Positions 3,132-29,438 of a stretch of 44,198 bases of DNA are shown piece after piece. The translations under genes were made by a program, and so were the position numbers. The notes below the pieces were generated by a model, which ran no database searches, had not been told where the DNA came from, and saw only the letters and a program-made list of their open reading frames with translations. Location: sequence record OR756193.1; one strand, given 5' to 3'. Source of the stretch: Escherichia phage vB_EcoS-EE09. The stretch's first letter is position 1; each line of letters starts with the position of its first letter.

Positions 3132-4952
3132 TTATTTCTTCAACGCCGCGATCTCGGCTTTCAAATCCTCCACTTCCGCCGACAGGCGTTTACACTCAGC
3201 GATCGCATATTGTGCGCACCCCATCAAGTCCATCACGATAGGGTTAACGTCTACCGACGGACGGTCGCGCGTCTTACCCCCGACGATGGCGTTAGTCTCG
3301 GGGTCCACCTCCACATCGTACGTCTCCTCTCGGTGTTTGATGTATTGAGGCGCAATCTCTTCTGCTTCCTCGGCAATGATGCCGAAGCGGACGCGCTCCT
3401 GCACATCGTCCTTATACACGTAGCGCACCATGCGCATTTGTTCAATGCGTGCAACCGCTTCGGTAACGTCCGCGTCGGTAATATCTTTCTTAAAGTCCCT
3501 TCCTGATGTACCCTGGAGGGCAATAACACCACCAGATGAGGGCCAGTTGACTGTGAAGCCAGTGCCGTCTCCCTTCTCAAAATATTTATAGATCAGGTTA
3601 CTATTGATATTAACCGTATCCCACATCGTGCGGAAGTTACCAGCCGGGACGGTAGCTTTTCCGTTGTTTAGAACGAAAGACAACGCTGAAGCTGTCTCTG
3701 TTGGGCGGACCGTGATATCTCGATGACTCATCATGCCGCTTATCCCCGATCCAGAGATCTCCATAACGGTATCGCGGTACGCGCCCGACGCGTCATATGA
3801 GTGCAACTTAAAATTGCCCGCGGCGTCGTTAATCCCCATGCGCCAGCGTACTTTATCGGCGGAATCAGCCCAACATACGCCACCAAAGCCCGACCCGTTC
3901 TGCTTAAGGATTAATCCATCTTGGGAGTCGCCGTTAGATTTGAATTGGCGGAACTCGGCGACGTTATCGCCGCGCCCCGTACCACCGAATGCAATCGGCA
4001 GCGGCATGGCTTTATTGTTGGCATTATCCCACCCGCCCCAGTCGCCATTTTCCTTAACGAAGATCCATTTATTCTTCGCCGCAGTCCTGATTTGTGTTTC
4101 GCCGCTGGTTATGTTTTGCGTTAGGCGGTCTACACCAATGTTTTCGCGCGCCACAGCCACATCCGCAACATCACTTAAGTTGTTGGCCTTCGCAAGTAGG
4201 TTTTCCGGGTTAACACTATTAGCGAATTGTTCGGCCTCATTGCGAAATCCTTGCGCGGCAGTGCGGGCAGCTTGCGCGTCCTCCTTCGCGGTATTGGCTT
4301 CATCACGAATAACGCCAGTGTCAGTCTTGATCTGATTCGTTTGGTCCTTGATCGCCTGCGTATCTGCCTTAAGTTGAGTGGTCTGGTCCTTGATCGCCTG
4401 CGTATCTGCCTTAAGTTGGCTGGTCTGCGTCTTGATGGTGTTGGCGTCGTTCTTGAAGCCTTCCGCCTCGTTACGGAATCCTTGCGCGGCTGCTTCCGAT
4501 GCGGCGGCTTGTTGTTGCAGGTTGCGCATCTCAACGGGGTCTACTTCCTTCAGCAAAGACGACAGGTAGCCCCACGACATACCCTGCATAACTTGCCCGT
4601 TCGGGAGCGTGACTGTGATTTCTTCAGCATCGCCGAAGATTGCACGCCAGTTGTTTTCATCTGCAATCATCAAGCGCAATGCTTTTTGGGCCTGTACGGT
4701 AACGCCCATCGTTGCCAGCGACATGGTATCGCGCTTAACGCCATCCCACGCAAGGCCGGTTGCCGTCGGGCCGTCGAACGGCAGCACCAGCGTAAGCGCC
4801 GTGTTACTTTCGATTGATGCGATCGCCACGGTGTAAGGCACTTGTCCTACCACCAGCGTTAAGAAGTCGCCAGCTTTAAACGCGGTAAACGTTGTGCCGA
4901 CCCCTACTACCGCCTTGCTGTTGTTCGTTACGGATAGAGTACCCGCTGCCAT
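3132..4952 (-). CDS. tail fibre protein with C-terminal intramolecular chaperone (peptidase S74-like) domain
   Basis: ORF track (track start at 4979 is a TTG inside the ATTGGTTGCA motif; ATG at 4952 with RBS GAGGA preferred); C-terminus has S-G-R-D-F-K-K-D-I followed by VRYVYKDD...RFGIIAEEAEEIAPQYI and a terminal coiled coil, the pattern of auto-cleaving chaperone domains of phage fibres. Confidence 0.75.
   Translation of the reverse strand: MAAGTLSVTNNSKAVVGVGTTFTAFKAGDFLTLVVGQVPYTVAIASIESNTALTLVLPFDGPTATGLAWDGVKRDTMSLATMGVTVQAQKALRLMIADENNWRAIFGDAEEITVTLPNGQVMQGMSWGYLSSLLKEVDPVEMRNLQQQAAASEAAAQGFRNEAEGFKNDANTIKTQTSQLKADTQAIKDQTTQLKADTQAIKDQTNQIKTDTGVIRDEANTAKEDAQAARTAAQGFRNEAEQFANSVNPENLLAKANNLSDVADVAVARENIGVDRLTQNITSGETQIRTAAKNKWIFVKENGDWGGWDNANNKAMPLPIAFGGTGRGDNVAEFRQFKSNGDSQDGLILKQNGSGFGGVCWADSADKVRWRMGINDAAGNFKLHSYDASGAYRDTVMEISGSGISGMMSHRDITVRPTETASALSFVLNNGKATVPAGNFRTMWDTVNINSNLIYKYFEKGDGTGFTVNWPSSGGVIALQGTSGRDFKKDITDADVTEAVARIEQMRMVRYVYKDDVQERVRFGIIAEEAEEIAPQYIKHREETYDVEVDPETNAIVGGKTRDRPSVDVNPIVMDLMGCAQYAIAECKRLSAEVEDLKAEIAALKK
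4341..4424 (-). repeat. two near-identical 42-bp tandem repeats inside the tail fibre gene
   Basis: TGGTCCTTGATCGCCTGCGTATCTGCCTTAAGTTG(A/G)(G/C)TGGTC twice with degenerate flanking copies; encodes 14-aa repeats (TQLKADTQAIKDQT-like). Confidence 0.8.
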
Positions 4953-4968
4953 AGCTAAATCCTCGTAA

Positions 4969-4978
4969 ATTGGTTGCA
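4969..4978. promoter_or_regulatory. ATTGGTTGCA motif in the divergent region between tail fibre and lipoprotein genes
   Basis: Exact 10-mer shared with 20819, 20832, 44170, 44187 and, in reverse, 1893, 31484, 31515, 34812. Confidence 0.5.
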
Positions 4979-5032
4979 ATCCTGGTTGAGCGGTGTAATA
5001 CTAAGACTCAACCAAATATAGGAGATGATAAC

Positions 5033-5251
5033 ATGAAAACTTTAATTATGATTTGTGCGGTTCTTCTGTCTGGTTGTGCCGGTATGCCGTCTAAAATCTG
5101 CGACGCGACGTACCAGAATAGCGGCATGGATTACTCAGTCCCCGTGTTTGGGGTTGCAGACTTCTCCGGGCATAAAATGCTAAGGGCTGGCTATCCGTTT
5201 AGCTTCCAGTACGTGTCGGTCAACCACTTCAAAAGCACCACCTGCAGATAA
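5033..5251 (+). CDS. small secreted lipoprotein (72 aa); candidate Cor/Llp-like superinfection exclusion protein
   Basis: RBS AGGAG 8 nt upstream of ATG; signal peptide with lipobox (MKTLIMICAVLLSGC); opposite orientation to the surrounding tail genes, terminator hairpins on both sides. Confidence 0.65.
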   Translation: MKTLIMICAVLLSGCAGMPSKICDATYQNSGMDYSVPVFGVADFSGHKMLRAGYPFSFQYVSVNHFKSTTCR

Positions 5252-5268
5252 GCCCCTTTCGGGGCTTT
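5251..5268. terminator. terminator hairpin between lipoprotein gene and the convergent minus-strand gene
   Basis: AGCCCC-tttc-GGGGCT hairpin followed by a T-rich run. Confidence 0.6.
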
Positions 5269-5270
5269 CT

Positions 5271-5945
5271 TCAATCATAATTGGCAGTGTTAATCGCCAT
5301 AATCGCGTTGCCGTTGTTAGTATACCCCACCACATCCCCCGTGGCGTTCCCCGACGACGCTGCCGATATACGCGTTCGCGACCCATCAAATCTGGCCCCC
5401 GTGTACGCCGTTACCGATATTACCTGCGGCTGGCCCTGCACAAAAAACCGGATCAGCGTAGACCCCAATATGCCCGGAGCGACGGCGTAGCTGCCGTTTA
5501 GCGTCTGGTCAATGTTAATCCCCCCGTTAGCGCCTGGCGATCCGACGGTAACTAAATCGCTTAGTACCCGGCTCTCGTTCGTCAGCACTAGCCTCCCCGT
5601 CTTATCCCAAATAGCGAAGCCCCACCGCGGAAGGGTCTGTGGGAATATGGCAAAGATGTAAGCCGTCATCGTGAAGCCTTGCCCGAATGGATTGCTGGCG
5701 CTCACCTTCACCACATTACCAACGCGAGAAGACCCTACGACGGTCGGCTGGGCGGTGTGCGTAGTTTTCACAAACGCTATTGCGGGGTAGTCGCCACCCA
5801 AATTAATATCGGCAGCCGCCGACTGCGCAGTGCCGTTAGCCGAAGACCCAACAACCACACGGCGGAATAGACAAAACGGCGTCGATTCTGGCGTGATAAA
5901 CGGGTTGCCGTTTGGTAAGTCAATCAACGCGCCGTAATTAGCCAT
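5271..5945 (-). CDS. hypothetical tail-associated protein (224 aa), possible receptor-binding component
   Basis: ORF track; start overlaps the upstream stop (TAATG); sits directly downstream of the J-like gene. Confidence 0.55.
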   Translation of the reverse strand: MANYGALIDLPNGNPFITPESTPFCLFRRVVVGSSANGTAQSAAADINLGGDYPAIAFVKTTHTAQPTVVGSSRVGNVVKVSASNPFGQGFTMTAYIFAIFPQTLPRWGFAIWDKTGRLVLTNESRVLSDLVTVGSPGANGGINIDQTLNGSYAVAPGILGSTLIRFFVQGQPQVISVTAYTGARFDGSRTRISAASSGNATGDVVGYTNNGNAIMAINTANYD

Positions 5946-6247
5946 TATGCTCGCTCCACAAAAACAATAACGTCACATTCAGATGCGGAGTAAACCCCGC
6001 CACCTACCGCACTTGCCGCGGAAACCGTGATAGTGTTCCCGCTGGCGGTTATTCTGCGGCCTGGCCCGACCGCGCCTTTATCCAGTGCGACCACGTATCC
6101 GACCTTCATCCCCGCCGGTACCGGGAATGACCATGCGCCTGATTTTTGTCCTTCCGCAAGATGAATCCTTCCGACAACCGATACCGGTTTAATCCCGTAG
6201 TTGTTCGGTCGCCCTTGTGCGTCCCATGTTGCTATTCCGAAAGCCAT
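5945..6247 (-). CDS. hypothetical tail-associated protein (100 aa)
   Basis: ORF track; RBS GGAG 8 nt upstream of ATG. Confidence 0.55.
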   Translation of the reverse strand: MAFGIATWDAQGRPNNYGIKPVSVVGRIHLAEGQKSGAWSFPVPAGMKVGYVVALDKGAVGPGRRITASGNTITVSAASAVGGGVYSASECDVIVFVERA

Positions 6248-6264
6248 GCTTTAACTCCAAAAGA

Positions 6265-6280
6265 AGGGGCCGAAGCCCCT
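6265..6280 (-). terminator. terminator/attenuator hairpin after the J-like gene
   Basis: AGGGGC-cgaa-GCCCCT hairpin with a T-rich run downstream on the minus strand. Confidence 0.5.
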
Positions 6281-6283
6281 ATA

Positions 6284-9200
6284 TTACCAACTGCCGGTGA
6301 GTTCTCCAATCTGCACGCGGAGAACGCCGTTTCCGTCCTTAACGCTGATTCGCGTGTTAGTCTGTTTCATCCCGCCGCCACTACCAGTGCCCAGGTTGAT
6401 AAACGTTCCGTCTTTCCCTAAGCGCCAGCCGCGCGTGCTGCCGTCGTAGTTATTCGATTGCAGCGTGTCTGTTATCTGCGCGAAGTTGATGGACGCGTTC
6501 TTGATGCGTGCCGTGTCGATATACACCGCGCCACCGTCCACAATAAACGCAGACGACAGCGTCCCATTGGACGGGTGCATGATGTAGAACTGGTCCGCCT
6601 TGAACGCAATACGTGATTTAACCGCGTTGCCAGACGTCACAACGGAAAGCTGCATACCAGCATCATAGTAAGTCCCGTTATACGTCACGCCCGCCTTAAG
6701 GCTATACGTGGCACTACCACCAGCGTGGTTAAACGAGGACGTCATCTTCTGCTCGATAGCGGCGGACTGCTGGCCGAACTGTGTCGCGACCTGGGTCTTA
6801 TATTCCGCCAGCGCTCCCGCCACGTCTGCGGTTGCCGTTTGTACCTGCTGGATGGCGGCTTCCTGTTCCCCGAACTTAGCGGCAACAGTTTGCTGATACT
6901 GGGCGAACGCTTGTTCCTGTGTGCTCTGCGCGGTCTGCAACGTGTGGATCGCAGCTTCCGCGTCATCAAGTCGCGTGCCGATCAACGTCTCCAGTTGAGC
7001 GACCGCCTTGTGGGCGTCCGCCGCCACGTTATACGCGACCGAGATTTCCGCATAAATACCCTTGTACTCGGCGCGGGCGTTGAACAATTGCTGCGCGTCG
7101 GTGAGCATCGCTTCATATATGCCTTGCGGGATCGTGTTAATAGCTTCCTGGAAGCGTTTACCATCCTCGGAAGTCAAGAACTCGTCATCAAGCCCCTTCA
7201 TGTACTCGTCAACTTTGTCACTCACCTGCCCTTCAAACGGGGCCGACCAGTCCGACCGGTTGCCGATTTTATCCACCACACGGGCGCGCAACTGCTGGTA
7301 AATCCCGAACTCCAGCGACGTTTGCGCATACTCTGCCCCAGGGTATGGGACGTTGGACAGGAATTTCCATTCCGTTTCGCCCGTCTTGCGCACTTCAAGC
7401 TCTGTGTAAGAGATATCCGTCGCGGCGTTGTTGTGGTTCCACTTCCATAGGATCTGGTGCAAACCTGAAATCGCGTTGGTGATGATTGGCGCATTAAGCC
7501 CACCGAGACGACCTTCCACCGGCGTGATCGCGGATGATACCCACGGAGATGAAATCTCGCCCATACCGATCGCACGGACGCGTGCCTGGTAGTTACCGGA
7601 GAACACGTTAGGAATGTGCGCGCCATTCGACGCCGTTCGTGGGATATTCACCCAGTCGTTACCCCACTGGATTTCCATATTCTGTAAGCTGGTGCGCCGC
7701 CACTGTATTTCATACACCACGGCGTCCTTCACCGGCGGGAAAACAATATCCACGTTGGTGATTAGCTGGCCTTGCGATGAAATCTGCGACGGGGTTATGG
7801 TCACGGATTCCGGCCCCTTCATCACACCGTCCGGCACTTGCGTAAAGATGCCTGGGTCAAGGCGCGCGCCATTATCAACGGCATCATATTTGCTATCGTT
7901 GTATTCAATCCCGCGCACCGAAAAAGTGCTGGTAGAGTCGTCATATTCCAGGTCGGTGATGCGGAACTTCTGCAACTGGATATCGTTGCCATCAACGCAA
8001 AACGGCTGGTCGGGAATCGGGTCGGCATCCAGTGCAGTTTTTAGCGTAACCTTGTTGCCGTTGACGCTGGCGATCTCGCGAGTCTCCACATTACCGCTAT
8101 CGGTGCGCACCAGGAACTTATCGCCAGGGCGGAACGTGATTTCGCTGTCCGTGTTCAGCACGGTACGCGTTCCGGGGTCCGACATCAGTCGACCGCCACG
8201 AGTCTCGAATCCGCCAGAAATATTAGTATCTGCGATCGCGACTACGCTACCAGGAATAAAGAATAACCCTTCCATGCCAACTTTAAAGCTAACTTGCTGG
8301 TCAAGCTGGTTGGAGATTAGCGCCCAGTGCCCGCGGCGTTGCGCTTCAGATTCACGCGTACAGCCGATCGCCGTGATATCAAGACGGTTAATCTTATGGC
8401 GGCGTACCAGTTCGACACGTTGCCCCGTTGCGATGGCATCTTCATAGTGGTTCTTCGGGTTGCCGTATGCGACCGCGAAAGTTGAATACCGAGTTTTCTG
8501 GCTGCCCGATGCGTAGTCGAATCGACCATCAATTACCGAGGCGTTGGTGATAGTGTGCGACACTGCTGCGACCGGTTGGTCACTGACGATATTCAACATC
8601 TGGTTGCCCCACCAGGTCATTCCGGCGAAGATGGCAGCCAAATCCTTAAGCACGGTCCAGGCATCCGTCTGTGACTGAATGTACATATCATTCTTAAAGC
8701 GGATTTCTCGACCACCGTTGCCGTCGCTGACCAACTGATCGCAGCGCTGCGCAATCTGGTAGAGCGCGTACCGGTTTAACATTTGCGGTTTGATACGCCG
8801 ACCGAGGCCGAAGCGCTCAGTAATACAAATATCGTACCAGTGCCACGCAGGGTTATCCGTCCATGCGCGTTTAAACGTGCCGTCCCAGTCCCCGGAATAG
8901 GTATGGTTAATCGGGTCGTAGTTGTTCGGTATTAGAACTTTGCGGCCTTTGCACTTGATGGACACGCGCGGGATGTTCTGGAACGCTTTGGCGTCGAACT
9001 CCACAAACAACAGCGCGGTTAGCGGGTAACGCAGACGGGCGTCAATAATCTCAGTGATGGACTGCACCCGGATATCATTAACCACTTTCGCCGATGTGGA
9101 GTCCGCCGTTATGCGGTGCACCTCCACTCGCCAGCCGGTATTCACGTTCGGCGGTAATTCGATGCGGTGGTCGCGCTCATACAGCGACATTGTTTTACCA

Positions 9201-9703
9201 ACGGCGGCGAATCTGAACTCACGCGGGTCGGCGTTATCCGTATACACAACTATCTTATAGTCGATGCGCCCGCCCACCAGGTCGCCATTATCTTCGTTAG
9301 TGTACAGGGCTGGAATGCCGATGCGAATGCGAACAGCGTCCAGACTGGTATCGTTAATCTGGCGCACCCACGGCGTGCCGTTTTCCAGTTTTACGCCGGC
9401 AGATTGCTCACTTTCCACCGCCGAAAATCCGTGGATCACATCCTGGTGCTGTGTGCCGGGGCGGAACTCCACCCGCGCTCCAGGGAAGTTTTCGGACAGG
9501 TCAGCATTCTGGATCGGCGTTCCGTCCAGATATACACGCTGCCGCAATTCGCTGGCGCTGGTAATACTTTCGAATTCCCCTTCGCCCAGTGCGAGCAAGA
9601 TGCGGATTTTAGCCAGCGAATGCAGGCTATCGGGCGTCTCCTGTGGGGTGTGCTGTTTGCCGCCGCCGCCTTTATGCCCAGTGACGTCGTAGATAATCGT
9701 CAT
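6284..9703 (-). CDS. central tail fibre / host specificity protein, lambda J-like (1139 aa)
   Basis: Size and position after I/K/L/M-like genes; start overlaps the I stop (ATGA). Confidence 0.85.
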   Translation of the reverse strand: MTIIYDVTGHKGGGGKQHTPQETPDSLHSLAKIRILLALGEGEFESITSASELRQRVYLDGTPIQNADLSENFPGARVEFRPGTQHQDVIHGFSAVESEQSAGVKLENGTPWVRQINDTSLDAVRIRIGIPALYTNEDNGDLVGGRIDYKIVVYTDNADPREFRFAAVGKTMSLYERDHRIELPPNVNTGWRVEVHRITADSTSAKVVNDIRVQSITEIIDARLRYPLTALLFVEFDAKAFQNIPRVSIKCKGRKVLIPNNYDPINHTYSGDWDGTFKRAWTDNPAWHWYDICITERFGLGRRIKPQMLNRYALYQIAQRCDQLVSDGNGGREIRFKNDMYIQSQTDAWTVLKDLAAIFAGMTWWGNQMLNIVSDQPVAAVSHTITNASVIDGRFDYASGSQKTRYSTFAVAYGNPKNHYEDAIATGQRVELVRRHKINRLDITAIGCTRESEAQRRGHWALISNQLDQQVSFKVGMEGLFFIPGSVVAIADTNISGGFETRGGRLMSDPGTRTVLNTDSEITFRPGDKFLVRTDSGNVETREIASVNGNKVTLKTALDADPIPDQPFCVDGNDIQLQKFRITDLEYDDSTSTFSVRGIEYNDSKYDAVDNGARLDPGIFTQVPDGVMKGPESVTITPSQISSQGQLITNVDIVFPPVKDAVVYEIQWRRTSLQNMEIQWGNDWVNIPRTASNGAHIPNVFSGNYQARVRAIGMGEISSPWVSSAITPVEGRLGGLNAPIITNAISGLHQILWKWNHNNAATDISYTELEVRKTGETEWKFLSNVPYPGAEYAQTSLEFGIYQQLRARVVDKIGNRSDWSAPFEGQVSDKVDEYMKGLDDEFLTSEDGKRFQEAINTIPQGIYEAMLTDAQQLFNARAEYKGIYAEISVAYNVAADAHKAVAQLETLIGTRLDDAEAAIHTLQTAQSTQEQAFAQYQQTVAAKFGEQEAAIQQVQTATADVAGALAEYKTQVATQFGQQSAAIEQKMTSSFNHAGGSATYSLKAGVTYNGTYYDAGMQLSVVTSGNAVKSRIAFKADQFYIMHPSNGTLSSAFIVDGGAVYIDTARIKNASINFAQITDTLQSNNYDGSTRGWRLGKDGTFINLGTGSGGGMKQTNTRISVKDGNGVLRVQIGELTGSW

Positions 9704-21630: not shown

Positions 21631-21655
21631 AAAAGGGGGCCATCACGGCCCCCGA
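21631..21655. terminator. bidirectional terminator
   Basis: GGGGGCC-atcac-GGCCCCC hairpin with an A-run upstream and T-runs on both strands; overlaps the last codons of the o-spanin gene. Confidence 0.7.
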
Positions 21656-21873
21656 ATTATTTTCTGCAACTCCAGCACTTGCGCCCTTAGCTTAGCCCCG
21701 CATTCCATATTTTTAACATCAACCAGCAAATCTTCGTCTGGATCTGCCGAGGCATTCTCAAAGGTGCAAGGAGGTCTATAGACCGACTCGGTTAGCGGCG
21801 TCGATGGCACGTTGCTTGATCCGCACGCGCTCATCATCAAAACTGCAATCAGGACGGTTAGGACGCGTAACAT
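21643..21873 (-). CDS. o-spanin (Rz1-like outer membrane lipoprotein)
   Basis: RBS AAGAGG; signal peptide with lipobox-like MMSAC, Pro-rich mature part; overlaps the i-spanin gene in another frame. Confidence 0.65.
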   Translation of the reverse strand: MLRVLTVLIAVLMMSACGSSNVPSTPLTESVYRPPCTFENASADPDEDLLVDVKNMECGAKLRAQVLELQKIIRGP

Positions 21874-22084
21874 ATTTTACAACCTCTTTCGTGATGGTCC
21901 TGTATTCCACGTCGCGGGCCTGTTCTGCCTGCACGACCCCCTCGACAACCTTAGTTTGCTGCCGTTGGGCTTTCGCTTGCGCTTCTTGCGCCGCTCTCGC
22001 CTCAACGCCAGTGCGGTAGGAATCACCCTGCCAGAATCCAACCGCCAGACCTATTACCAACCCAATCGCTGCATACTTAATCAC
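21776..22084 (-). CDS. i-spanin (Rz-like inner membrane protein)
   Basis: N-terminal transmembrane segment (IKYAAIGLVIGLAVGFW) followed by a charged, Gln/Ala-rich periplasmic part; track start is TTG, GTG at 22084 with RBS AGGGGG preferred. Confidence 0.6.
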   Translation of the reverse strand: MIKYAAIGLVIGLAVGFWQGDSYRTGVEARAAQEAQAKAQRQQTKVVEGVVQAEQARDVEYRTITKEVVKYVTRPNRPDCSFDDERVRIKQRAIDAANRVGL

Positions 22085-28427: not shown

Positions 28428-28919
28428 TTATGCTGCGTTACGTCCGATCTTCTCGGCAACGTCCCACTGCTTACCATCGAATAGCGCCTGCCTGCCGATT
28501 GCTCGACGGACCAGACCCTTAAGCACTTCCCCGCCTTGCTTGCGGAACTGCGGCAGAATAGCACGGACCTTCGCCCAGTCGCCCAGTCGCACCGCATCAT
28601 CGAAATCATTCGCTACGTCATCCGGTACGATCGGACCCGGACCGGCATTGATTACCAGGTCAACCAGCGCGTCGAATTGCGCTTGATTAATGCTCGGATG
28701 TGCGTATTTGTTCACCCAGTCCTCGGCATACGCCACATCGCGCTTGAGTAGCTCCAGCGCTTCCGCACGGGTAATGCTTCGAGGCGGGTTAGTGCCGGTA
28801 TGACCATAACCCCAGGTGTACAGGCCGCGGGCCTGCTCTTTCTTAGTCGCGAAATACGGCACTGGGCTGAAAGTCTCCCATGCTGCCGTAAATCGTAGAC
28901 CGTTGTCACTGAATCGCAT
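28428..28919 (-). CDS. endolysin, phage lysozyme (GH24, P22 gp19-like)
   Basis: Catalytic-region pattern E...Y...T-W-G-Y-G-H-T-G ... N-Q-A-Q-F-D-A-L-V-D-L-V-I-N-A-G; adjacent to holin genes. Confidence 0.8.
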   Translation of the reverse strand: MRFSDNGLRFTAAWETFSPVPYFATKKEQARGLYTWGYGHTGTNPPRSITRAEALELLKRDVAYAEDWVNKYAHPSINQAQFDALVDLVINAGPGPIVPDDVANDFDDAVRLGDWAKVRAILPQFRKQGGEVLKGLVRRAIGRQALFDGKQWDVAEKIGRNAA

Positions 28920-29151
28920 GTTTTACCCCATTCAAAACAGCATTACGCAGCGTGCGCAATGCAAACAGCCAGATTAACGCGGTCCAGGTGGTGTCAGATA
29001 CGTCTCCTGTCTGCAACAATCCGATAACGCAGATCATCGCCGTTAGCAGATATAACACCCGGCCTAAAATGCCATCCTGGACGGACGGCGCATACACGTT
29101 AAACAGGGACGAAGCCCCTATGATAACAAACAACAGGACGGAGATAATCAT
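28906..29151 (-). CDS. holin/antiholin-like small membrane protein (81 aa)
   Basis: Two to three predicted transmembrane segments; start overlaps the upstream stop; directly upstream of the endolysin. Confidence 0.6.
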   Translation of the reverse strand: MIISVLLFVIIGASSLFNVYAPSVQDGILGRVLYLLTAMICVIGLLQTGDVSDTTWTALIWLFALRTLRNAVLNGVKHAIQ

Positions 29152-29438
29152 TTTGCGCCCCCCGGAAGTCGGAACGACTCAATAGTCTCCCTGATCCGGG
29201 CGGCTATTGGCATCCAGAAGATTGCGGTTACGAAGCCCAAACCGGCGACAGTGCGCTCGCCAGATAATCCCGCCCACTCGGCGATAGCTGGCGCACCAAA
29301 TATGGCACACAGGAAGCCAACTACGACATATAAAACGAAGTTCAACGGCCCTTTCGTTGCCTCGCCATGAATGCGTGCGCCTACGAAGCCACCAGCAAGA
29401 CACGCAAGGGCGAATAACCACTCGTTTAGCTTATCCAT
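29148..29438 (-). CDS. holin-like membrane protein (96 aa)
   Basis: Three hydrophobic segments with a charged C-terminus. Confidence 0.6.
   Translation of the reverse strand: MDKLNEWLFALACLAGGFVGARIHGEATKGPLNFVLYVVVGFLCAIFGAPAIAEWAGLSGERTVAGLGFVTAIFWMPIAARIRETIESFRLPGGAK

What the first reader, a model, noticed from the sequence alone, without database searches (positions are those of the whole stretch)
5033..5251. Small lipoprotein beside the tail fibre genes: candidate Cor/Llp-type superinfection exclusion factor
A 72-aa ORF with a strong RBS and a lipoprotein signal peptide (MKTLIMICAVLLSGC) lies on the opposite strand between the tail fibre gene and the putative receptor-binding genes downstream of J, insulated by terminator hairpins on both sides. 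Phages T5 (Llp) and T1/phi80 (Cor) place a small outer-membrane lipoprotein next to their receptor-binding genes; it masks the receptor and blocks superinfection. That is established knowledge for those phages and an inference here.
Basis: partly seen in the sequence, partly recalled or inferred. Interest (0 to 1): 0.6.

Follow-up and report, generated by a model that had tools for sequence, protein, structure and literature searches.

The report
Cor receptor-blocking lipoprotein of a Dhillonvirus
The small gene is a real, conserved member of the well-known phage Cor family, an outer-membrane lipoprotein that shuts the FhuA receptor so the infected cell cannot be re-infected; it is already annotated this way in sister phages, so the finding is correct but ordinary.

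Summary
The 72-aa ORF at 5033-5251 (+) is real. It has AGGAG 8 nt upstream, a canonical lipoprotein signal peptide (lipobox LSGC, Cys15), and dN/dS of about 0.1 across eight Dhillonvirus alleles.

The window is a Dhillonvirus genome, about 93% identical to Envy, JLBYU60 and SM_W22.

The protein is a Cor-family member:
- It passes the curated NCBIfam equivalog "phage exclusion lipoprotein Cor" (58.8 bits, cut-off 31).
- It matches PHROG 1119 full length (E 2.9e-27).
- It is 51% identical to T1 Cor and 42% to phi80 Cor.
- It keeps the family's invariant Cys pair and the RAGYPF motif.
- Its AlphaFold model (pLDDT 85.6) ranks the T5 Llp chain of the FhuA-Llp crystal structure second of 350,542 PDB chains, although the E-value is weak.

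It sits in the conserved J / gp22-like / gp23-like / cor module of FhuA-dependent phages. The gp23-like neighbour is 99% identical to that of Envy, which is reported to depend on FhuA.

Only the downstream hairpin is supported, by compensatory changes. The upstream "hairpin" is a weak, unconserved inverted repeat lying over a candidate promoter.

Orthologues are already annotated as Cor, and the Dhillonvirus cassette is published. Novelty: already known. No exclusion phenotype has been tested for this allele.

The parts
4974..5002 (+). Candidate sigma-70 promoter of cor: -35 TTGCAA (4974-4979), 17-nt spacer, extended -10 TG-t-AATACT (TG 4994-4995, hexamer 4997-5002). The predicted transcription start is near 5009.
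   Evidence: Read from the sequence. TTGCA, TG and ATACT are invariant in 9 Dhillonvirus sequences, including Zar3M, which carries a different cassette. At 8 of 12 consensus matches it falls below the scanner's threshold of 9. It is a candidate only.
5020..5024 (+). Shine-Dalgarno AGGAG, 8 nt upstream of the ATG
   Evidence: In relatives the sequence is AGGAG, AGGGG or AAGAG.
5033..5251 (+). The cor gene: a 72-aa precursor of a Cor-family phage exclusion lipoprotein, stop codon included
   Evidence: NCBIfam NF047972 at 58.8 bits against a cut-off of 31. PHROG 1119 at E 2.9e-27. 51% identity to T1 Cor and 42% to phi80 Cor. dN/dS about 0.1.
5033..5077 (+). Signal peptide II region MKTLIMICAVLLSGC: lipobox LSGC, with the lipid-modified Cys15 at codon 5075-5077
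   Evidence: Cys15 is invariant in 67 homologues. This stretch is identical in the unrelated lipoproteins of Oekolampad and Zar3M.
5078..5248 (+). Region after the lipidated Cys15 (57 aa; the mature protein is 58 aa counting Cys15, about 6.4 kDa). It carries the invariant Cys23 (5099-5101) and Cys71 (5243-5245) and the RAGYPF motif. The predicted fold is a small beta-sheet.
   Evidence: Invariant columns in 67 sequences are C15, C23, A52, G53, F66 and C71. AlphaFold2 mean pLDDT is 85.6, and 93-94 over residues 21-70. The best structural match that covers a whole chain is Llp, 8a60_B.
5250..5267 (.). GC-rich hairpin AAGCCCC-TTTC-GGGGCTT. It fills the 19-nt gap between the converging stop codons of cor and the gp23-like gene. 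It is the likely intrinsic terminator of cor, with the tail TCTTCAAT.
   Evidence: Fold of -14.2 kcal/mol, z = -3.2. Compensatory stem changes and loop variation occur in relatives. It was not called by the consensus scan because the T-run is short.
5271..5945 (-). N15 gp23-like protein (224 aa, PHROG 425). It belongs to the receptor-specificity locus downstream of J.
   Evidence: PHROG 425 at E 8.7e-70. 57% identity to phi80 gp23 and 52% to T1 ST31. 99% identity to Envy.
5945..6247 (-). N15 gp22-like protein (100 aa, PHROG 557). It is the second gene of the receptor-specificity locus.
   Evidence: PHROG 557 at E 1.1e-32. 55% identity to T1 ST32.
6284..9703 (-). J-like tail tip protein (1139 aa). 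Its last roughly 40 codons (6284-6407) belong to the segment that differs from the LptD-type relative Oekolampad.
3132..4952 (-). Lateral tail fibre gene. It is a neighbour transcribed divergently from cor and is not part of the exclusion module.
   Evidence: PHROG 1980 at E 2.9e-134. The start ATG at 4952 follows from alignment with annotated relatives.

Best explanation
The gene encodes the Cor lipoprotein of a virulent FhuA-targeting Dhillonvirus.

Proposed course of events:
1. After infection the gene is transcribed on its own, from a sigma-70-type promoter on the strand opposite the tail genes, and stops at the hairpin just past its stop codon.
2. The 72-aa precursor is exported, lipid-modified on Cys15 and cut by signal peptidase II.
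3. [quoted passage not shown]
4. The 58-residue mature domain is a small beta-sheet fold stapled by a Cys23-Cys71 disulphide. It binds the periplasmic side of the ferrichrome transporter FhuA.
5. As solved for its distant homologue T5 Llp, binding forces FhuA's surface loops into a state that the phage's receptor-binding proteins cannot use.

The result is that the infected cell, and later its debris, no longer takes up or inactivates this phage or other FhuA-dependent phages.

Shown here: the ORF, RBS, lipobox, purifying selection, family membership, conserved cysteines, predicted fold, gene order, and co-inheritance with the receptor-specificity genes.

Inferred: promoter use and timing, lipidation and sorting, the disulphide, FhuA as the target, the periplasmic allosteric mechanism, and the exclusion phenotype.
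For: Family membership:
- NCBIfam equivalog 'phage exclusion lipoprotein Cor' scores 58.8 bits against a cut-off of 31.
- PHROG 1119 matches at E 2.9e-27 over residues 1-72.
- tblastn and BLASTP give 51% identity to T1 Cor and 42% to phi80 Cor, full length.
- 317 database homologues were found, many of them named 'phage exclusion lipoprotein Cor' by NCBI.
- C15, C23, C71, A52, G53 and F66 are invariant in 67 diverse homologues.

Lipoprotein features: lipobox LSGC and Ala at +2.

A real gene: dN/dS about 0.1.

Link to Llp:
- hhalign of the Cor alignment against T5 Llp gives probability 93%, and both Cys pairs align.
- The AlphaFold2 model has pLDDT 85.6.
- Foldseek against the PDB ranks 8a60_B (Llp bound to FhuA) second of 350,542 chains: TM 0.52/0.59, rmsd 3.1 A over 57 of 62 residues, 26% identity.
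- The next BFVD hits after the Dhillonvirus orthologue are lipoproteins of T5-like phages and a 'receptor-blocking protein'.

FhuA as the target:
- The gp22-like and gp23-like neighbours are 52-57% identical to those of T1 and phi80.
- The module order J / gp22 / gp23 / cor is the same in T1 (where cor is also convergent), phi80, HK75 and Erwinia phage Midgardsormr38.
- The gp23-like protein is 99% identical to that of Envy.
- PMC10373560 reports Envy, JLBYU37, JLBYU60 and Teewinot as FhuA-dependent.
- PMC13164509 finds the full cor cassette only in FhuA-using BASEL Drexlerviridae and Dhillonvirus phages.

Co-inheritance: against the LptD-type Dhillonvirus Oekolampad, the replaced segment is exactly 5082-6407. 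That is mature Cor plus both small genes plus the tip of J.

Mechanism of the relative: FhuA-Llp crystal structure and allosteric loop closure (PMC9586334).
Against: - No experiment exists on this allele or, as far as two literature searches show, on any Dhillonvirus Cor.
- The Foldseek E-value for Llp is weak (0.078), and Tudor-domain chains of similar small beta folds score alongside it.
- The molecular mechanism of Cor itself is unsolved. A 2026 preprint states this explicitly.
- From my own knowledge, Arguijo-Hernandez et al. 2018 reported that Cor-mediated exclusion involves other outer-membrane proteins.
- The promoter is below the scanner's threshold, and the terminator's T-tail is short.
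- Pfam has no matching family.
Confidence: 0.88

Rival explanations
1. It is a Cor-family lipoprotein, but it blocks FhuA indirectly, through or together with other outer-membrane proteins, rather than by the direct Llp-like periplasmic allosteric clamp.
For: The Cor mechanism is stated to be unresolved (preprint 10.64898/2026.03.26.714494). [quoted passage not shown] Cor and Llp share only about 26% identity.
Against: Cor and Llp share the fold, the disulphide positions and the lipoprotein topology. PMC13164509 reports an AlphaFold3 model of T1-like Cor docked on the periplasmic face of FhuA with ipTM 0.84.
Confidence: 0.12
2. It is a Cor homologue retargeted to another outer-membrane receptor such as BtuB, as occurs for Cor/Llp-like proteins of some T5-like and Tempevirinae phages.
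For: PMC13164509 notes Cor-like proteins in BtuB-using phages. The mature part of cor is the most diverged stretch of the locus: 86% DNA identity to Envy against 95-100% in the flanks.
Against: The linked gp22-like and gp23-like genes are the FhuA-type alleles, and the gp23-like protein is 99% identical to FhuA-dependent Envy. The protein passes the Cor equivalog model, which T5 Llp does not match. The BtuB-linked cases lack the full three-gene cassette.
Confidence: 0.04
3. The molecular action is the same, but the benefit under selection in this virulent phage is mainly to stop progeny virions being wasted on FhuA in lysed-cell debris and vesicles, not to exclude competing phages.
For: Dhillonviruses are virulent; no integrase is annotated in the relative Oekolampad. 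This benefit is discussed for Llp and Cor in PMC13164509 and PMC9586334.
Against: The two benefits are not exclusive, and sequence cannot separate them.
Confidence: 0.4
4. It is a lysis lipoprotein (o-spanin), or a chance ORF with a lipobox-like start.
For: Small phage outer-membrane lipoproteins are often o-spanins.
Against: The window has its own i-spanin/o-spanin pair at about 21646-22084 (-), 96-97% identical to the annotated pair of Oekolampad. It also has holin and endolysin elsewhere. There is no overlapping i-spanin partner here. dN/dS is 0.1 and the protein matches Cor over its full length.
Confidence: 0.01

Closest known systems
Cor of phages T1, phi80, N15, HK022/mEp167 (NCBIfam NF047972, PHROG 1119)
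   Same: - Size, lipobox, invariant Cys pair and RAGYPF motif match.
- It is 42-51% identical over the full length.
- Its position directly after the J / gp22 / gp23 genes is the same.
- Its convergent orientation is the same as in T1.
-.
   Different: - The host genome is a virulent Dhillonvirus rather than Tunavirus or a temperate lambdoid phage.
- In phi80, HK75 and the Erwinia phage, cor is co-directional with J.
- Here cor lies back-to-back with the lateral tail fibre gene.
- No phenotype has been measured for this allele.
Annotated Cor orthologues of Dhillonviruses (Envy YP_009288142, YD-2008.s, SSL-2009a, JLBYU60 and others)
   Same: The gene, position and orientation are the same. Protein identity is 85-92%. 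These records already carry the label 'Cor superinfection exclusion protein'.
   Different: This is a new allele. The best protein identity is 91.7% in phage records and 90% in the 5.8-billion-protein collection. The mature-coding part is more diverged than its flanks.
Llp of phage T5 (PDB 8A60, FhuA-Llp complex)
   Same: - It is also a small outer-membrane lipoprotein encoded next to the receptor-binding genes.
- The Cys pair aligns and the fold is similar: hhalign probability 93%; TM 0.52/0.59.
- The proposed target is the same, FhuA.
- It also has divergent promoters overlapping the start of the gene.
   Different: - Identity is only about 26%.
- Llp does not match the Cor NCBIfam model.
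- T5 uses a single large RBP, pb5, rather than the gp22/gp23-type locus.
- The mechanism is solved for Llp and only inferred for Cor.
Rtp45-type exclusion lipoproteins of LptD-targeting small siphophages (Rtp; Oekolampad gp26 occupies the same slot)
   Same: It occupies the same slot between J and the lateral tail fibre gene. It has the same promoter region and an identical 16-residue signal peptide. The logic of a cognate lipoprotein paired with an RBP allele is the same (PMC12685063).
   Different: The mature sequence is unrelated; tblastn matches only residues 1-16. The receptor differs (LptDE). The RBP there is one 321-aa protein on the lipoprotein's own strand.

Membership tests
Cor phage exclusion lipoprotein (NF047972 / PHROG 1119) | Scores above the curated family model threshold | tested here: met
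   NCBIfam equivalog lamb_exclu_cor at 58.8 bits against a cut-off of 31, residues 2-71. PHROG 1119 at E 2.9e-27, residues 1-72.
Cor phage exclusion lipoprotein (NF047972 / PHROG 1119) | Full-length similarity to the named Cor proteins of phi80 and T1 | tested here: met
   42% identity to phi80 Cor (E 3e-20 pairwise) and 51% to T1 Cor (E 4e-24 pairwise). The database-wide tblastn E-values are 5e-10 and 5e-15.
Cor phage exclusion lipoprotein (NF047972 / PHROG 1119) | Precursor of about 70-80 aa with a signal peptidase II lipobox and a residue at +2 that permits outer-membrane sorting | tested here: met
   72 aa, LSGC with Cys15, Ala at +2. Lipidation itself was not tested.
Cor phage exclusion lipoprotein (NF047972 / PHROG 1119) | Conserved second and C-terminal cysteines (intramolecular disulphide) and the RAGYPF core motif | tested here: met
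   C23, C71, A52 and G53 are invariant, and P55 and F56 nearly invariant, in 67 homologues. Disulphide formation is inferred.
Cor phage exclusion lipoprotein (NF047972 / PHROG 1119) | Linked to the J / gp22-like / gp23-like module of FhuA-dependent phages | tested here: met
   The whole unit is swapped together relative to Oekolampad.
Cor phage exclusion lipoprotein (NF047972 / PHROG 1119) | Expression makes cells resistant to FhuA-dependent phages and inactivates FhuA functions | not testable with these tools
   This needs plating assays and ferrichrome or albomycin assays. The only indirect support is that close relatives are FhuA-dependent (PMC10373560).
T5 Llp (lytic conversion lipoprotein) | Close sequence relationship to T5 Llp | tested here: not met
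   There is only remote homology: hhalign probability 93% and 26% identity. Llp itself does not hit the Cor model. The two share a superfamily and a fold, not a subfamily.
T5 Llp (lytic conversion lipoprotein) | Llp fold as seen in the FhuA-Llp crystal structure | tested here: inconclusive
   8a60_B ranks second in the PDB with TM 0.52/0.59 and rmsd 3.1 A over 57 columns. However, the E-value is 0.078 and Tudor-like small beta folds score similarly. BFVD hits to lipoproteins of T5-like phages have E-values of 3e-3 to 5e-3.
Phage o-spanin (Rz1-like lipoprotein) | Lies in or beside the lysis genes, with a partner i-spanin gene | tested here: not met
   The window's spanin pair is at about 21646-22084 (-), and holin and endolysin at 28431-29438 (-). 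There is no partner gene around 5033-5251.
Rtp45-type LptD-directed exclusion lipoprotein | Mature-domain similarity to the lipoprotein in the same slot of LptD-targeting relatives | tested here: not met
   Oekolampad gp26 matches only residues 1-16, the signal peptide. Rtp45 itself was not compared.

The most novel reading that the evidence does not exclude
Dhillonviruses may exchange receptor specificity and the matching exclusion factor as one cassette. That cassette is mature lipoprotein plus RBP-locus genes plus the tip of J. Its left junction sits immediately after the lipobox cysteine. The promoter, RBS and an identical signal peptide (MKTLIMICAVLLSGC) would then serve as a shared expression-and-export head and as the homology arm for at least three unrelated mature lipoproteins: Cor here, Oekolampad gp26 and Zar3M gp37. 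The junctions and the shared head are observed directly. Their role as a preferred recombination arm is inference. I did not check whether the boundary has already been described.
Probability: 0.5. Interest if true: 0.3.

Novelty: already known. Interest (0 to 1): 0.1.

Why it matters
It matters little beyond annotation. The gene confirms that this phage carries the standard FhuA-type receptor module together with its cognate receptor-blocking lipoprotein. That allows the terminal receptor (FhuA) to be predicted from sequence. It also warns that cells expressing the gene, or debris from them, would resist T1, phi80, T5 and related phages, which is relevant when designing phage cocktails. The Cor mechanism is still unsolved structurally, so a well-behaved Dhillonvirus allele could be one more candidate for a FhuA-Cor structure.

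Tried and rejected
- Pfam scan of the protein found no family, even at E <= 1.
- A sequence search of the PDB returned only a signal-peptide match to the TraV lipoprotein (E 0.32), which is not meaningful.
- The first word-indexed homologue search with the single protein found only 6 close relatives. The profile of diverse Cor proteins was needed to reach 317.
- The exhaustive HMMER search of 1.84 billion representatives found only 23 clusters at E <= 1e-3. A few of these are long, multi-stretch proteins that I take to be spurious. The family is therefore narrow.
- The consensus promoter/terminator scan called neither the candidate cor promoter nor the downstream hairpin. Both rest on manual reading plus conservation.
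- The upstream 'terminator hairpin' was rejected: its fold is not significant and it is not conserved.
- The o-spanin reading was rejected.
- The longer TTG-initiated ORF (4970-5251, 93 aa; some relatives are annotated this way, for example SECphi4 and the 94-aa CEC_Kaz_2018 entry) was rejected. It would bury the signal peptide, and T1 and phi80 Cor begin at the aligned Met.
- The first two protein-family calls failed because my start coordinate was off by one.

Full report
**Observation**

The window holds an ATG-initiated ORF at 5033-5251 on the + strand, encoding 72 aa. AGGAG lies at 5020-5024, 8 nt upstream. The N-terminus MKTLIMICAVLLSGC has a Lys n-region, a hydrophobic core and the canonical lipobox L-S-G-C, with Cys15 followed by Ala.

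The genes on both sides are on the minus strand:
- The lateral tail fibre gene is at 3132-4952. Its true start is the ATG at 4952, by alignment with annotated relatives.
- Two small genes lie at 5271-5945 and 5945-6247, downstream of the J-like gene at 6284-9703.

Across eight Dhillonvirus alleles the gene has pooled pN/pS of 0.15 and median pairwise dN/dS of 0.10, with dS of 0.5-0.8 against the window. It is a protein-coding gene under purifying selection, not a chance ORF.

**The hairpins**

The downstream hairpin is AAGCCCC-TTTC-GGGGCTT at 5250-5267. It fills the 19 nt between the converging stop codons. It folds at -14.2 kcal/mol (z = -3.2; none of 200 shuffles does as well).

Relatives keep the stem through compensatory changes: GGCCCC/GGGGCC in GeorgBuechner and AAACCCC/GGGGTTT in Pubbukkers. 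The loop varies among TTTC, GAAA and GGAA. Its T-tail is short, and the consensus scanner did not call it.

The upstream 'hairpin' (4983-4990 / 5007-5014, 16-nt loop) is not significant (z about -2). It has no T-run, and most relatives break it by one-sided substitutions.

It overlies a candidate promoter: TTGCAA at 4974-4979, a 17-nt spacer, then TG-t-AATACT at 4994-5002. The key positions of this promoter are invariant in nine phages. It matches 8 of 12 consensus positions, one below the scanner's threshold. The claim of hairpins on both sides is therefore only half right.

**What the window is**

The window is a Dhillonvirus genome, a small virulent siphophage of E. coli. It is about 92-93% identical over 25 kb to SM_W22, UHP65, Oekolampad, Envy and JLBYU60. 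The region 4700-5600 is 94% identical to JLBYU60 and Envy. In those records the orthologous gene is already annotated as '(Cor) super-infection exclusion protein'.

**What the protein is**

Family tests:
- The protein passes NCBI's curated equivalog model NF047972 'phage exclusion lipoprotein Cor' (58.8 bits, cut-off 31).
- It matches PHROG 1119 'Cor superinfection exclusion protein' over its whole length (E 2.9e-27).
- Pfam has no family for it.

Similarity to named Cor proteins:
- tblastn against 50,697 phage records finds 250 records.
- These include T1 (51% identity, E 5e-15), phi80 (42%, E 5e-10) and the HK/mEp lambdoid phages whose genes are named cor.
- Pairwise BLASTP confirms full-length alignments.

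Breadth of the family:
- A profile search found 317 homologues, mostly in enterobacterial prophages. NCBI names many of them 'phage exclusion lipoprotein Cor'.
- An exhaustive HMMER scan of 1.84 billion representatives found only 23 clusters, so the family is narrow.
- In 67 diverse homologues C15, C23, C71, A52, G53 and F66 are invariant, and the RAGYPF core is nearly so.

**Relation to T5 Llp**

The T5 Llp sequence I recalled was verified as 100% identical to the T5 records. A Cor profile aligns to it with hhalign probability 93% and 26% identity. The lipobox Cys aligns, and so do both further cysteines: window C23/C71 with Llp C26/C73. Llp does not match the Cor NCBIfam model.

An AlphaFold2 model built on the 67-sequence alignment has mean pLDDT 85.6, and 93-94 over residues 21-70. 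It shows four beta strands.

Foldseek against the PDB ranks the Llp chain of the FhuA-Llp crystal structure (8a60_B) second of 350,542 chains. It has the best rmsd among the leading hits and covers nearly the whole Llp chain (TM 0.52/0.59, 3.1 A, 57 of 62 residues). The E-value is only 0.078, and Tudor-like small beta folds score alongside it.

In BFVD the top hit is a Dhillonvirus orthologue. The next hits are lipoproteins of T5-like phages and a 'receptor-blocking protein'.

Published work reaches the same view. Cor and Llp share about 20% identity including the disulphide and probably act alike (PMC9586334). Predicted Cor and Llp structures belong to one family, although the Cor mechanism is still unresolved (preprint 10.64898/2026.03.26.714494).

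**Context and target**

The two neighbours are the N15 gp22-like and gp23-like proteins (PHROGs 557 and 425). They are 52-57% identical to the T1 and phi80 proteins.

The order J / gp22 / gp23 / cor recurs in T1, phi80, HK75 and Erwinia phage Midgardsormr38; in T1 cor is convergent, as here. SSU5 shows a looser version: genes with the same product names precede cor, but a tail fibre protein and an adhesin stand upstream instead of J.

The gp23-like protein is 99% identical to that of Envy. PMC10373560 reports Envy, JLBYU37, JLBYU60 and Teewinot as FhuA-dependent. Maffei et al. describe allelic RBP loci downstream of gpJ that are paired with cognate exclusion proteins and match receptor use in Drexlerviridae and Dhillonvirus (PMC8594841). 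PMC13164509 reports the full three-gene cor cassette in exactly the FhuA-using BASEL Drexlerviridae and Dhillonvirus phages.

An independent line of evidence comes from my comparison with Oekolampad, an LptD-targeting Dhillonvirus. Homology runs to 5081 and resumes at 6408. The replaced unit is therefore mature Cor plus both small genes plus the last roughly 40 codons of J. Against Zar3M the break points are 5076 and 6259. The lipoprotein is thus inherited together with the receptor-specificity genes, as expected for a cognate receptor blocker.

**Rivals**

- An o-spanin is excluded. The window has its own spanin pair at about 21646-22084 (-), and holin and endolysin at 28431-29438 (-).
- Retargeting to another receptor is unlikely, given the FhuA-type neighbours.
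- It remains open whether Cor clamps FhuA directly like Llp or acts through other outer-membrane proteins.
- It also remains open whether the main benefit for a virulent phage is excluding competitors or protecting its own progeny from debris.

**Mechanism proposed**

1. The gene is transcribed independently by host RNA polymerase from the candidate promoter and terminates at the hairpin.
2. The precursor undergoes Sec export, lipidation on Cys15 and cleavage by signal peptidase II.
3. [quoted passage not shown]
4. A disulphide-stapled 58-residue domain binds the periplasmic face of FhuA and closes the surface loops to the phage's receptor-binding proteins.

Only the sequence-level steps are shown here. 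The biochemical steps follow from established lipoprotein biogenesis and from the Llp structure.

**Verdict**

The only error is the upstream terminator. The gene is a routine, already annotated Cor orthologue in a known genus, and the Dhillonvirus cassette has been described in print. It is a new allele at most: 91.7% is the best protein identity in phage records and 90% in the large protein collection. Interest is low.

Noticed in passing
window 4953-5081; L018 (Oekolampad) 21795-21923; L004 (Zar3M) about 4920-5044: The promoter region, RBS and first 15-16 codons (MKTLIMICAVLLSGC) are shared by three Dhillonvirus lipoproteins whose mature parts are unrelated: Cor here, Oekolampad gp26 and Zar3M gp37. 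The left junction of the swapped receptor cassette falls right after the lipobox Cys: homology ends at 5081 against Oekolampad and 5076 against Zar3M.
   Followed up: partly
window 5045-5072 (- strand): A promoter-like site, CAGACA-16-CATAAT, lies on the minus strand inside the signal-peptide codons of cor and points at the lateral tail fibre gene (ATG at 4952). The T5 record annotates the same layout: divergent, overlapping llp and oad promoters, with the oad promoter reaching into the start of llp. It is a consensus match only.
   Followed up: partly
window 5078-5251 versus flanks 4700-5077 and 5252-6100: Against Envy, the mature-coding part of cor is only 86% identical in DNA (dS about 0.6), while the flanks are 95-100% identical and the neighbouring gp23-like protein is 99% identical. 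This is a small mosaic patch centred on the exclusion gene.
   Followed up: partly
window 5271-5945 and 5945-6247 (- strand): [quoted passage not shown] The literature disagrees on their role. Maffei et al. treat the locus downstream of gpJ as bona fide RBP genes. PMC13164509 found no structural homologues and supposes a role in exclusion.
   Followed up: no
L018 20654-21843 (Oekolampad); L004 5001-6157 (Zar3M): In the alternative cassettes the receptor-binding gene or genes lie on the lipoprotein's strand, directly downstream of it, and so could be co-transcribed from the same promoter. In the window's FhuA-type cassette they lie on J's strand and converge on cor.
   Followed up: no
window 21646-22084 (-), 28431-28919 (-), 29151-29438 (-): The spanin pair sits far from the holin and endolysin genes, so the lysis genes are split between two places, as annotated in Oekolampad.
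   Followed up: no
hits H44 and H67 (MG065648.1, MG065640.1): Records named 'Campylobacter phage A144' and 'A14b' (host given as C. jejuni) carry Cor proteins 89% and 49% identical to this coliphage gene, and their genome sizes are like those of Dhillonvirus and T1-like phages. They look like E. coli phage genomes deposited under a Campylobacter label.
   Followed up: no
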